A stretch of 13,620 bases of DNA, taken from the IMG/VR virus record IMGVR_UViG_2565956608_000003; one strand, written 5' to 3'. Shown here one piece after another: positions 427 through 3,607 of this stretch; position 1 is the stretch's first letter; each line of letters opens with the position of its first letter. Made by a program: the position numbers and the translations under genes. The notes under the pieces were generated by a model. It ran no database searches. It worked only from the letters and a program-made list of their open reading frames with translations, and was not told the origin of the DNA. This stretch comes from a virus. Taxonomy: Duplodnaviria; Heunggongvirae; Uroviricota; Caudoviricetes.

Positions 427-666
427 ATGAAGAAATTACTGGTAACCGTAAAGCCCTTTAACGGAACAATTCCGTTTCGGATTTTACAGCGTGGTCGTGT
501 TCTGGCTGAAGGTACATTCAGTGGTAAATGCACGGAATGTTATTCACGAATATATGAAGTGGATGCCTCGGATGAAGATATAACCGTTGAGTGTAATGCC
601 GGGATTGTATCGGCCACATTGCTTCATGGGCGAATTGGGTTGTCGCTGGAGGATGCAGGCAAATGA
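427..666 (+). CDS. Hypothetical small protein (79 aa), unknown function
   Basis: Track ORF; GGAGG(A) 418-423 about 4 nt upstream of ATG 427; lies between the lysis cassette and the HNH gene; I recognise no motif. Confidence 0.6.
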   Translation: MKKLLVTVKPFNGTIPFRILQRGRVLAEGTFSGKCTECYSRIYEVDASDEDITVECNAGIVSATLLHGRIGLSLEDAGK

Positions 667-869: not shown

Positions 870-1220
870 ATGCCATCACGAATCCCACGCGCCTGCCGTA
901 AGCGTGGATGTGCAGGTACAACCACAGACAGTTCTGGTTACTGCGATAAACATCGTGGCGAAGGATGGGTACAGCATCAACGCGGACTGAGCCGCCACCA
1001 GCGTGGCTATGGCTCGAAATGGGATGCCATACGTGCGCGCATACTGAAGCGTGATAATCATCTGTGTCAGAACTGCCTGCGCAATGGGAGAGCCGTTGAA
1101 GCCAGAACTGTGGACCACATCATTCCGAAAGCTCATGGTGGCACGGATGCAGACAGTAACCTGCAGAGTCTGTGCTGGCCCTGTCATAAAGCAAAAACAG
1201 CGCGTGAACGCATCAACTGA
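870..1220 (+). CDS. HNH endonuclease (packaging-associated, HK97 gp74-like)
   Basis: HNH signature DHIIPKAHGG...SNLQSLCWPCH with Cys pairs CQNC and CWPC (zinc-finger type), plus an N-terminal Cys cluster; sits directly upstream of the small terminase gene, as in HK97-like phages; GAGG 861-864 before ATG 870. Confidence 0.9.
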   Translation: MPSRIPRACRKRGCAGTTTDSSGYCDKHRGEGWVQHQRGLSRHQRGYGSKWDAIRARILKRDNHLCQNCLRNGRAVEARTVDHIIPKAHGGTDADSNLQSLCWPCHKAKTARERIN

Positions 1221-1367
1221 TAACAGTTCCTATCTGCAGGGGAGGGGCGGGTCAAATCTCTGCAACCCTGGCTGCTCAGTACCGCCGCCTGACCTTTCCT
1301 CGCATCGCCGCAGGTTCGAAAACTTTTTTTTGGAATGTGATTAAATGATTGATAGGTAAAACCGATT
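1221..1367 (+). other. Candidate cos / terminase-recognition region (HNH-to-TerS intergenic)
   Basis: 147-bp non-coding gap in an otherwise tightly packed operon; G-rich tract GGGGAGGGGCGGG (1239-1251), CGCCGC twice (1283-1288, 1306-1311), T8 run (1324-1331). Position matches where cos lies in HK97-like genomes. Exact cut site not determinable by eye. Confidence 0.35.
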
Positions 1368-1850
1368 ATGTCTGGACCCCCGAAAACCCCGCCACGCCTG
1401 CATTTGATACGAGGCAACCCCTCAAAGCGGCCAGTTAAAGACCTCAAAAAAACCGCTAAAAAGGATGAAAAAGGTCTCCCTAAAATTCCGCAACATTTAG
1501 GGGCGCAGGGGAAGTACTGGTTCAGGCGAATGGCGGAAGAGCTGAATGCGGAAGGGATCATTTCTCAGCTTGATGCGCGTGCGCTTGAGCTACTGGTGGA
1601 AGCCTATACCGAATACCGGCATCACTGCGAAACACTCGATGTTGAGGGGTACACCTACCGCTCGGAAACGCAGAACGGTGATGTGCTGATTAAGGCACAC
1701 CCAGCTGCTGCGATGAAAGCGGATGCCTGGAAGCGGATCCGGGCGATGCTTGCAGAATTTGGTATGTCACCGGCAAGCCGGGCAAAAGTAAATACCGCCG
1801 GACCGGATAATGTTGATCCGCTGGCAGAGCTTTTAAAAGCGAGAGACTGA
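1368..1850 (+). CDS. Terminase small subunit (P27-like family)
   Basis: 160-aa ORF immediately upstream of and overlapping (TGATG) the large terminase gene; basic N-terminus (PKTPPRLHLIRGNPSKRP) and overall look recall the P27-family small terminase. Confidence 0.8.
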   Translation: MSGPPKTPPRLHLIRGNPSKRPVKDLKKTAKKDEKGLPKIPQHLGAQGKYWFRRMAEELNAEGIISQLDARALELLVEAYTEYRHHCETLDVEGYTYRSETQNGDVLIKAHPAAAMKADAWKRIRAMLAEFGMSPASRAKVNTAGPDNVDPLAELLKARD

Positions 1851-3607
1851 TGGCAAAAGTGGCTGACGGGATCCGCTACGCCGAACGTGTTGTTGCAGGA
1901 GAAATTGTTGCTGGCGAATTTGTCCGCCTGGCCTGCCAGCGTTTTCTTGATGATCTGAAGTACGGCGAAAAGCGGGGGATTTATTTCAGTGAACCCCGTG
2001 CGCAGCACATCCTGAATTTCTACAAATTTGTGCCTCATGTAAAAGGGGCACTGGCAGGCCAGCCCATTGAGTTGATGGACTGGCATGTATTTATCCTCAT
2101 TAATATTTTTGGTTTTGTCATTCCGCTGGTCAATGAAGAAACCGGGGAAGTTGTCATGCGCAGCGATGGCAGCGGACGTCCGGTGATGGTGCGCCGGTTC
2201 CGGACGGCGTACAACGAAGTCGCCCGTAAAAACGCAAAATCAACCCTGTCATCGGGTATCGGCCTGTATATGACGGGGGCAGATAGTGAAGGCGGAGCTG
2301 AGGTGTATTCAGCCGCAACCACGCGTGACCAGGCCAGAATCGTGTTTGAAGACGCCAAAAATATGGTCAGAAAAGCCCGGTCGACACTCGGGCGGTTGTT
2401 TGATTTCAACAAGCTGGCGATTTACCAGGAGCAGAGCGCATCAAAATTTGAACCGCTTTCCTCGGATGCAAACAACCTGGACGGTCTGAACATCCACTGC
2501 GCCATTATTGATGAGCTGCATGCACATAAAACCCGCGACGTGTGGGACGTTCTGGAGACGGCAACCGGTGCCCGTCTGCAGTCTCTGTTATTTGGCATCA
2601 CCACGGCTGGCTTTAACAAGGAAGGGATTTGTTACGAGCAGCGTGATTACGCCATCAAGGTATTGCGAGGCTATAACAGCGACGTGGAGGGCGCGGTAAA
2701 AGACGACTCCTACTTTGCGATCATTTACACGCTCGATGAGGGAGATGATCCGTTTGATGAAACGGTCTGGCAGAAAGCGAATCCTGGCCTGGGCATCTGT
2801 AAACGCTGGGATGATCTGCGTCGTCTGGCGAAAAAAGCGAAGGAGCAGGTCTCTGCGCGGGTGAATTTTTTTACCAAACACATGAATGTGTGGGTCACTG
2901 CCGAATCTGCCTGGATGGATATGATTAAGTGGGAGAAGTGCGAATACATTGCTCCACAACATGAGCTGAAAACATATCCCATGTGGGTCGGCGTCGACCT
3001 TGCTCATAAGATTGATATCTGTGCGGCGGCAAAACTCTGGCGAACCGATAACGGACATGTTCATGCTGATTTTAAATTCTGGCTTCCGGAAGGACGGCTG
3101 GAACGATGCTCGCGGCAGCAGGCAGAACTTTACCGGAAGTGGGCGGAGATGGATAAGCTCATCCTGACGGATGGTGATGTTATCGATCATGCTCAGATAA
3201 AAAGTGACTTACTGGAATGGATTGGCGGTGAAAACCTCAGGGAACTGGGATTTGACCCGTGGAGCGCAATGCAGTTCAGCCTGGCACTGGCTGAAGAAGG
3301 GATACCGCTGGTGGAGGTTCCGCAGACGGTCCGCAATCTGTCAGAGGCCATGAAGGAAACGGAATCACTGGTTTATGCCGGGCGTTTCCATCACAGCAAT
3401 CATCCGGTCATGAACTGGATGATGTCTAACGTTACTGTAAAACCGGACAAAAACGACAACATCTTCCCGAATAAATCCACGCCGGAAGCCAAAATCGACG
3501 GCCCTGTTGCGCTTTTTACAGCCATGAGCCGCTTTCTGGTAAATGGCGGGGGCGTGAATGACTTTCTGTCCACGCTTGATCCTGATGAGGACTTGTTAAT
3601 TCTGTGA
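1850..3607 (+). CDS. Terminase large subunit
   Basis: 585-aa ORF; Walker B-like HCAIIDELH; possible deviant Walker A around ARKNAKST; C-terminal nuclease-like region (WVGVDLAHKIDICAAA); position between small terminase and portal. Confidence 0.9.
   Translation: MAKVADGIRYAERVVAGEIVAGEFVRLACQRFLDDLKYGEKRGIYFSEPRAQHILNFYKFVPHVKGALAGQPIELMDWHVFILINIFGFVIPLVNEETGEVVMRSDGSGRPVMVRRFRTAYNEVARKNAKSTLSSGIGLYMTGADSEGGAEVYSAATTRDQARIVFEDAKNMVRKARSTLGRLFDFNKLAIYQEQSASKFEPLSSDANNLDGLNIHCAIIDELHAHKTRDVWDVLETATGARLQSLLFGITTAGFNKEGICYEQRDYAIKVLRGYNSDVEGAVKDDSYFAIIYTLDEGDDPFDETVWQKANPGLGICKRWDDLRRLAKKAKEQVSARVNFFTKHMNVWVTAESAWMDMIKWEKCEYIAPQHELKTYPMWVGVDLAHKIDICAAAKLWRTDNGHVHADFKFWLPEGRLERCSRQQAELYRKWAEMDKLILTDGDVIDHAQIKSDLLEWIGGENLRELGFDPWSAMQFSLALAEEGIPLVEVPQTVRNLSEAMKETESLVYAGRFHHSNHPVMNWMMSNVTVKPDKNDNIFPNKSTPEAKIDGPVALFTAMSRFLVNGGGVNDFLSTLDPDEDLLIL

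What the first reader, a model, noticed from the sequence alone, without database searches (positions are those of the whole stretch)
1221..1367. Probable cos / packaging recognition region adjacent to the HNH and terminase genes
This 147-bp non-coding gap lies exactly between the HNH endonuclease and the small terminase, where cos sits in HK97-like genomes. It contains a G-rich tract (1239-1251), two CGCCGC copies (1283-1288, 1306-1311), short direct repeats of TCTGCA (1233-1238, 1259-1264) and a T8 run (1324-1331). If this is an active phage, its genome ends should map here.
Basis: inference. Interest (0 to 1): 0.4.

Follow-up and report, generated by a model that had tools for sequence, protein, structure and literature searches.

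The report
HK97-type phage cos packaging site
The 147-bp gap between the HNH nuclease and small-terminase genes is almost certainly the prophage's cos site, where replicated DNA is cut into unit genomes for packaging; this is an ordinary, expected feature of HK97-like phages, although never annotated in E. coli genomes.

Summary
Aligned with relatives whose ends are known (SfI ends sequenced from virion DNA; HK97 record ends, which match published numbering; the phiP27 cos-site annotation; Proteus phage Pm34 record ends on the opposite strand), the predicted cohesive end is a 10-nt 3' overhang, CGCCGCCTGA (1283-1292), with nicks at 1282|1283 (bottom strand) and 1292|1293 (top strand). The gap has three parts. 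(1) A G-rich block (1239-1262) is shared by phages with unrelated small terminases, and Bacillota phages carry recognisable versions; it always lies 25±1 nt from the cleavage core. (2) The cleavage core. (3) A block at +5..+39 (1297-1331, including the second CGCCGC and the T8 run) is nearly invariant only among phages with this TerS type. It sits where HK97 TerS binds (+15..+29). The TCTGCA and CGCCGC "repeats" are at chance level (P=0.36), and the first TCTGCA copy is not conserved. TerL is an HK97 gp2 homologue and the HNH is gp74/GVE2-like. No virion ends were tested. Verdict: a new member of a known kind, of low-to-moderate interest. The deep conservation of the G-block is the only possibly new point.

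The parts
870..1220 (+). HNH endonuclease gene (gp74-like packaging accessory nuclease)
   Evidence: Pfam PF01844, E=1.9e-16. Matches PDB 5H0M, the Geobacillus virus E2 HNH, at E=2.4e-15. 37% identical over 70 aa to HK97 gp74, E=6e-12.
1239..1262 (+). G-block GGGGAGGGGCGGGTCAAATCTCTG (-54..-31 from the top-strand nick). It is the conserved upstream cos element; its binding partner is unknown (inferred to be TerL/HNH, or cosQ-like).
   Evidence: 11 G in 13, P=0.001, unique in the window. Conserved with HK97, SfI/SfV, phiP27, Pm34 and mEp235 although their TerS proteins are 14-26% identical between types. The exact 14-mer occurs in at least 120 IMG/VR contigs, mostly between an HNH gene and a Terminase_4 gene. 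Of 80 Bacillota loci chosen by HNH homology, 64 match a G-run..ATC(T/C)C..A(A/G)CGG pattern. Spacing to the cleavage core is 25±1 nt.
1263..1282 (+). Spacer of variable sequence but fixed length between the G-block and the cohesive-end sequence. The predicted bottom-strand nick is after 1282.
   Evidence: No indels between the G-block and the cleavage core in any aligned phage. 60% of columns vary among close relatives. The Pm34 record, deposited on the opposite strand, starts at the equivalent of 1282.
1283..1292 (+). Predicted cohesive end CGCCGCCTGA, a 10-nt 3' overhang. The top-strand nick is at 1292|1293 and the bottom-strand nick at 1282|1283.
   Evidence: Aligns without gaps to the SfI cos TGCCCGCCCC (virion-end sequencing), the phiP27 cos-site CGCCCGCCCC and the last 10 nt of the HK97 record, CGCCGCCAAA. 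HK97 record position 1 equals the published +1. The chimeric head of the Fraca record joins at the +1 equivalent.
1297..1331 (+). Predicted small-terminase binding site (cosB-like), +5..+39: TCCTCGCATCGCCGCAGGTTCGAAAACTTTTTTTT. It contains the second CGCCGC and the T8 tract (1324-1331).
   Evidence: Nearly invariant (1306-1329 at 9/10 or better) among 10 phages whose TerS is 59-75% identical, and absent from phages with other TerS types. Mean pairwise identity is 0.89 against 0.735 for the terS CDS, and higher in 28 of 28 pairs. Only 9.7% of columns vary in 64 close relatives, against 37% at terS third codon positions. It occupies the same position as the HK97 TerS site at +15..+29.
1342..1354 (-). 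Exact match to the IHF consensus WATCAANNNNTTR (TATCAATCATTTA); a tentative host-factor bending site.
   Evidence: The only exact match in the 13.6-kb window. Retained in 59 of 64 close relatives, but by my own reading of the alignment not in the Klebsiella, mEp235 or Pm34 relatives.
1368..1850 (+). Small terminase (TerS, Terminase_4/P27 family)
1850..3607 (+). Large terminase (TerL), an HK97 gp2 homologue
   Evidence: Pfam TerL_ATPase and TerL_nuclease. The only PDB sequence hit is 6Z6D, HK97 TerL, E=1e-35.

Best explanation
The gap is the cos site of an HK97/phiP27-type temperate phage. During late infection or induction, the TerS ring binds the conserved block just downstream of the cut (about +14..+37: CGCCGCAGGTT, then GAAAAC, then T8). 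It recruits or halts the TerL motor there. TerL and the adjacent HNH nuclease then make two nicks 10 bp apart in the GC-rich core (1282|1283 on the bottom strand, 1292|1293 on the top strand), giving a 10-nt 3' cohesive end, CGCCGCCTGA. DNA to the right (terS, terL, head and tail genes first) is packaged until the next cos. The G-block at -54..-31, held exactly 25 nt from the core, is a third element, probably read by the conserved nuclease/motor components rather than by TerS. Shown here: the homology, the positions of relatives' ends, the conservation pattern, and the protein families. Inferred: cleavage in this element, which protein binds which block, and any role of IHF.
Confidence: 0.85

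Rival explanations
1. It is cos by descent but no longer in use. The prophage is cryptic or defective, so no ends are ever generated here.
For: Only 13.6 kb is visible, so the integrity of the rest of the prophage is unknown. About 20% of complete E. coli genomes carry this module, and many resident prophages are defective.
Against: The HNH, terS, terL, portal, protease and capsid ORFs are all intact. The TerS-site block is under visible purifying selection among 64 relatives. Closely related sequences occur in deposited phage records, and mEp235 and Pm34 share the same TerS type and site.
Confidence: 0.1
2. It is a cos region, but the nicks lie elsewhere in the gap, for example about 17 nt upstream where the SfV and SfIV records break, or with a different overhang length.
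For: SfV and SfIV records start 17 nt upstream of the SfI start. One HK97 paper writes 12-nt overhangs in its discussion.
Against: The SfI ends were sequenced directly and gave 10 nt. The HK97 numbering matches its record. The Pm34 and HK97/SfI breaks are exactly 10 nt apart. [quoted passage not shown]
Confidence: 0.04
3. It is an ordinary intergenic regulatory region (RBS, promoter or terminator, or a small RNA) with no packaging role, and the phage packages by headful (pac).
For: The last ~15 nt before the ATG are conserved and look like an RBS. Some records annotate small hypothetical ORFs across the gap.
Against: No promoter-like or terminator-like site. No Rfam hit in the gap. RNA folding z=-0.17. 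TerL is of the HK97 cos type. Relatives have defined ends.
Confidence: 0.01

Closest known systems
Bacteriophage HK97 cos (10-nt 3' overhang; TerS gp1 site at +15..+29; TerL gp2; HNH gp74)
   Same: Position between the HNH and terS genes. The 9-nt core ACCGCCGCC is identical. A G-run + TCAAATC block lies at the same distance upstream. A GC-core + T-tract block lies at +14..+37, where HK97 TerS binds. TerL is homologous (E=1e-35) and the HNH is homologous.
   Different: TerS belongs to a different sequence family (18% identity), so the downstream block differs (CGCCGCAGGTTCGAAAAC-T8 against CTAACCCGA-T7). The last 3 overhang bases differ. The HK97 HNH stop lies about 265 nt from the G-block, against 18 nt here.
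phiP27 / SfV / SfI / ST64B / e14-type cos (cos-site annotated in NC_003356; SfI ends determined experimentally)
   Same: 81% DNA identity through the HNH gene into the gap. The G-block and spacer are nearly identical. The cleavage core has the same length and register. TerS is in the same Pfam family, Terminase_4.
   Different: The overhang is CGCC-CGCCCC or TGCCCGCCCC, against CGCCGCCTGA. TerS is only about 20% identical, and the downstream block is T7-ATACCCGCGAAAAAT rather than the window's block. The gap is 125 bp, not 147 bp.
mEp235 / Proteus phage Pm34 / Klebsiella phage 1 LV-2017 cos regions (not annotated as cos)
   Same: All three elements and the TerS type (64-75% aa identity for mEp235 and Pm34). 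The TerS-site block is nearly identical.
   Different: Point differences in the overhang (CGCCGCCTAG, CGCCCCCTTA). The exact IHF consensus is not conserved.
Phage lambda cos (cosQ-cosN-cosB, 12-nt 5' overhang, gpNu1 R sites, IHF site I1)
   Same: The same logic and order: an upstream element, then the nicking site, then a downstream TerS-binding region next to terS. There is a possible IHF site. The layout of lambda cos is from general knowledge.
   Different: The overhang has the opposite polarity. Lambda has no HNH protein, its TerS is unrelated, and the window has no triple R-site arrangement. It is not a member of this family.

Membership tests
HK97-type (HNH-dependent, 3'-overhang) cos site | Lies between a gp74-like HNH gene and terS/terL at the start of the head-gene operon | tested here: met
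   ORFs and Pfam; HNH against gp74, E=6e-12
HK97-type (HNH-dependent, 3'-overhang) cos site | The large terminase is of the HK97 gp2 family | tested here: met
   The only PDB sequence hit is 6Z6D, E=1e-35
HK97-type (HNH-dependent, 3'-overhang) cos site | Sequence homology to a cleavage site mapped experimentally in a relative | tested here: met
   Gap-free alignment to the SfI cos (virion-end sequencing), HK97 ends and the phiP27 cos-site
HK97-type (HNH-dependent, 3'-overhang) cos site | Virion DNA has fixed ends with a 10-nt 3' cohesive overhang at this site | not testable with these tools
   Needs virion DNA or reads. Indirect support only: the Pm34 and Fraca record junctions
HK97-type (HNH-dependent, 3'-overhang) cos site | A specific TerS binding site 15-29 bp downstream of the cut | tested here: inconclusive
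Lambda-type cos (5' overhang, gpNu1/gpA, cosB R sites + IHF) | gpNu1-type TerS with repeated R sites; no HNH | tested here: not met
   TerS is Terminase_4. The only direct repeats in 1150-1450 are 6-7-nt two-copy chance-level families. An HNH gene is present. There is a single IHF-consensus match
pac / headful packaging signal | TerL of a headful clade; terminally redundant, permuted ends | tested here: not met
   TerL matches only the HK97 cos TerL. Relatives have defined ends. The ends of this element were not tested

The most novel reading that the evidence does not exclude
The G-block (G-run + TCAAATC(T/C)C) is an obligatory third element of HNH-dependent 3'-cos sites, and I did not find it described in the library I could search. 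It would be a docking or ruler site for the conserved TerL/HNH (or portal) components, setting the two nicks about 25 and 35 nt downstream. It has been retained from enterobacterial to Clostridia/Bacilli phages while TerS and its site were swapped repeatedly. Functionally it would be the long-missing cosQ-like or nuclease-positioning signal of the HK97 system.
Probability: 0.35. Interest if true: 0.55.

Novelty: new member of a known kind. Interest (0 to 1): 0.3.

Why it matters
Knowing the exact cos position lets this very common E. coli prophage family be oriented and annotated correctly; the cos core is in about 1,070 of 5,426 complete genomes and never annotated. It also predicts virion ends for PhageTerm-type analyses, and flags which short DNA segment could make plasmids or satellites packageable by these phages. 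The tripartite anatomy gives testable predictions for the HK97 packaging model: the TerS site co-varies with TerS type, while the upstream G-block, at fixed spacing, is shared by phages of different phyla. HK97 work so far has mapped only the downstream TerS site.

Tried and rejected
1. Treating TCTGCA x2 and CGCCGC x2 as functional repeats: rejected. They are at chance level (P=0.36), and the first TCTGCA is not conserved.
2. Terminator or promoter in the gap: none found.
3. Known RNA family or stable RNA structure: none.
4. mEp235 record ends as evidence: rejected, because the record starts at the terS ATG.
5. SfV and SfIV record ends: these lie 17 nt upstream. I treated them as deposit convention, not a measured end.
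7. Literature on the G-block: the 14-mer occurs in no relevant paper in the library. Kala 2014, Weiditch 2020 and Recktenwald 2002 are not held, and there is no paper describing the Pm34 ends. 'Not described' therefore means only 'not found here'.
8. The viral-contig scan with TerS returned only relatives at 97% identity or more. These were useful for polymorphism but not for deep footprinting.
9. The IHF site as a family feature: rejected beyond the close E. coli relatives.

Full report
OBSERVATION. The window carries a lysis-to-head gene run: Rz (98-403), two small ORFs, HNH (870-1220), TerS (1368-1850, Terminase_4), TerL (1850-3607), portal, S78 protease, HK97-fold capsid protein, and tail genes up to a tape-measure-sized ORF.

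I tested the motifs against 5000 dinucleotide-preserving shuffles. The repeated hexamers are unremarkable: 3 observed against 2.1 expected, P=0.36. The T8 run (P=0.005) and the G tract (11 G in 13, P=0.001, unique in the window) are not expected by chance.

WHAT IT IS. A megablast of 900-1700 against deposited phages hit phiP27, whose record carries a 10-bp misc_feature 'cos-site' (CGCCCGCCCC) under the match. A more sensitive search with 1201-1400 found 72 records. In several of them the record ends within tens of bases of the match.

I rebuilt the end-to-start junctions of HK97, SfI, SfV, SfIV and ST64B and aligned them with the gap, then added Proteus phage Pm34 and mEp235. The results were:
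- The HK97 record ends ...GACCGCCGCCAAA| and SfI ends ...GACTGCCCGCCCC|. Both breaks, and the phiP27 cos feature, fall on the same columns, equivalent to window 1283-1292 (CGCCGCCTGA), with no gaps.
- The SfI cohesive end (5'-TGCCCGCCCC-3') was obtained by sequencing virion DNA ends directly (PMC3636060).
- HK97 record coordinates reproduce the published cos numbering (T16, G:C at 21, A-tract 24-29; PMC11331095), so record position 1 is the true +1.
- Pm34 is deposited on the opposite strand and breaks at the equivalent of 1282|1283, exactly 10 nt upstream. That is what a full-length bottom strand of a genome with a 10-nt 3' overhang would give. I could not find how the Pm34 ends were determined.
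- An independent hint comes from the assembly of phage Fraca. It begins with a 124-nt head, part of which matches a TerL-internal segment, and this head joins the family sequence at the +1 equivalent (CCTCTTTTCACATCG...).

I therefore predict nicks at 1292|1293 (top strand) and 1282|1283 (bottom strand).

ANATOMY. The gap has three conserved elements.

(a) The G-block, 1239-1262 (GGGGAGGGGCGGGTCAAATCTCTG; -54..-31).
- It is shared with HK97, SfV/SfI, phiP27, Pm34 and mEp235, although their TerS proteins are only 14-26% identical between types.
- Its exact 14-mer occurs in at least 120 IMG/VR contigs. Chance matches are expected in a collection of that size, and several hits are clearly unrelated. 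Most, however, lie 0-32 nt after an HNH gene and 89-125 nt before a Terminase_4 gene. These include contigs related to Oscillospiraceae, Erysipelothrix and Streptococcus phages.
- To avoid ascertainment by the motif, I took 80 loci from diverse Bacillota genomes chosen only by HNH homology. A G-run..ATC(T/C)C..A(A/G)CGG pattern was found in 64 of them. Most of the remainder look similar by eye.
- The distance from ATC to the core is 25 nt in 75 of 80 exact-14-mer contexts, and 24-26 nt in all 64 Bacillota loci that match the pattern.
- The distance to the HNH stop is free: 18 nt here, about 265 nt in HK97, and about 750 nt in PhiR49_2-type loci, where an insert with a 171-aa ORF sits between an intact HNH ORF and the G-block. 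The block therefore belongs to cos, not to the HNH gene.

(b) The cleavage core.
- ACCGCCGCC is identical to HK97.
- Among loci with the same TerS there are two alleles of equal length, CGCCGCCTGA and CGCCCGCCAA. The second is mostly linked to a diverged HNH allele.

(c) A block at 1297-1331 (+5..+39).
- It is nearly invariant among ten phages of E. coli, Klebsiella, Morganella and Proteus that share this TerS type (59-75% aa identity). It is absent from phages with other TerS types.
- Its mean pairwise identity is 0.89, against 0.735 for the terS coding DNA, and it is higher in all 28 pairs.
- Among 64 close relatives only 9.7% of its columns vary, against 37% at terS third codon positions.
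- It coincides in position with the experimentally defined HK97 TerS site (minimal +15..+29; +7..+37 used for cryo-EM). It has the same make-up: a short GC core followed by an A/T tract, which in HK97 must stay A/T-rich for binding.
- SfV/phiP27-type sites (ATACCCGCGAAAAAT) and the Bacillota sites (CGCGCAAAAATCGCG) have the same character.

The first CGCCGC is the cohesive end itself.

PROTEINS.
- TerL has a single PDB sequence match, HK97 TerL 6Z6D (E=1e-35).
- The HNH matches the Geobacillus virus E2 packaging HNH 5H0M (E=2.4e-15) and HK97 gp74.

MECHANISM (inferred by homology). The model follows published HK97 work (PMC9410871, PMC10359639, PMC11331095).
- TerS bound at the downstream site marks cos and stalls the incoming motor.
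- TerL, stimulated by the HNH protein, makes the staggered cut. [quoted passage not shown]
- The next genome is packaged starting with terS.
- The G-block would already lie inside or at the portal/TerL assembly when the cut is made. It is conserved independently of TerS and sits at a fixed distance from the nicks. My best guess is that it is read by the conserved TerL/HNH (or portal) components as a positioning or termination signal, analogous in position to lambda cosQ. This step is speculative.

A single exact IHF-consensus match lies at 1342-1354 on the minus strand. It is the only one in the window and is kept in 59 of 64 close relatives. It is lost in more distant members of the family, so an IHF role is tentative.

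ALTERNATIVES. No promoter-like or terminator-like site, Rfam family or RNA structure (z=-0.17) accounts for the conservation. Headful packaging is disfavoured by the TerL family and by the defined ends of relatives. The main residual uncertainties are whether this particular prophage is active, and the exact nick positions.

NOVELTY. This is an expected HK97/phiP27-type cos site, so it is a new member of a known kind. It is widespread: the cos core is found in 1,073 of 5,426 complete E. coli genomes and is never annotated. The cross-phylum conservation and fixed spacing of the G-block were not found in the literature I could search. Key papers are not held, so this is a lead, not a claim of discovery.

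Noticed in passing
window 1245-1258; loci L098-L297: The 14-mer GGGCGGGTCAAATC and close variants follow the HNH gene in phages of Enterobacterales and of many Bacillota (Clostridia, Bacilli, Negativicutes). They always lie 25±1 nt from a GC-rich core (AACGGGCGTGGGG in Bacillota).
   Followed up: yes
L018, L029, L045, L048; L003 (phage PhiR49_2) 1321-2072: Homology to the window breaks after about 1149 and resumes exactly at the first base of the G-block (1239). In between are an alternative HNH 3' end and a ~750-bp insert with a 171-aa minus-strand ORF that has no Pfam match (a moron?).
   Followed up: partly
L301 (Escherichia phage CharmingMan, PP925830) about locus 500-560: The ~21-27-bp segment holding the cleavage core is inverted relative to all other family members: CCTTAGGCGGCGGTCCTTTGG is the reverse complement of CCAAAGGACCGCCGCCTAAGG. 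It is flanked by GCGCC...GGCGC. This is either a real inversion or an assembly artefact at the cohesive ends.
   Followed up: no
L002 (Escherichia phage Evi, LR597642) 1640-1935: The record replaces the equivalent of window 1142-1323 (HNH 3' end, G-block, cleavage core, most of the TerS site) with an inverted copy of terS nt 1446-1564, joined at the T-run. This is probably a misassembly across the physical genome ends.
   Followed up: partly
L302 (Escherichia phage Fraca, LR597645) 1-125: The record starts with a 124-nt chimeric head, part of which (positions 15-58) matches a TerL-internal segment. The head joins the family sequence at the predicted +1 of cos.
   Followed up: partly
window 1280-1294 equivalents in L018-L097: Two equal-length alleles of the cohesive-end sequence (CGCCGCCTGA and CGCCCGCCAA) occur with the same TerS. 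The second is mostly linked to an HNH allele of about 82% identity. This suggests recombination breakpoints at or near cos.
   Followed up: partly
window 1342-1354 (-): The only exact IHF consensus (WATCAANNNNTTR) in the 13.6-kb window lies in the gap, between the T8 run and the terS RBS.
   Followed up: partly
window 427-666 and 663-851: Two small overlapping ORFs (79 and 62 aa) lie between Rz and HNH and have no Pfam match.
   Followed up: no
window 1236-1335 in E. coli genomes: The cos core is present in 1,073 of 5,426 complete E. coli genomes (up to 4 copies per genome, one copy on a plasmid). No feature is annotated over it in any listed record.
   Followed up: partly
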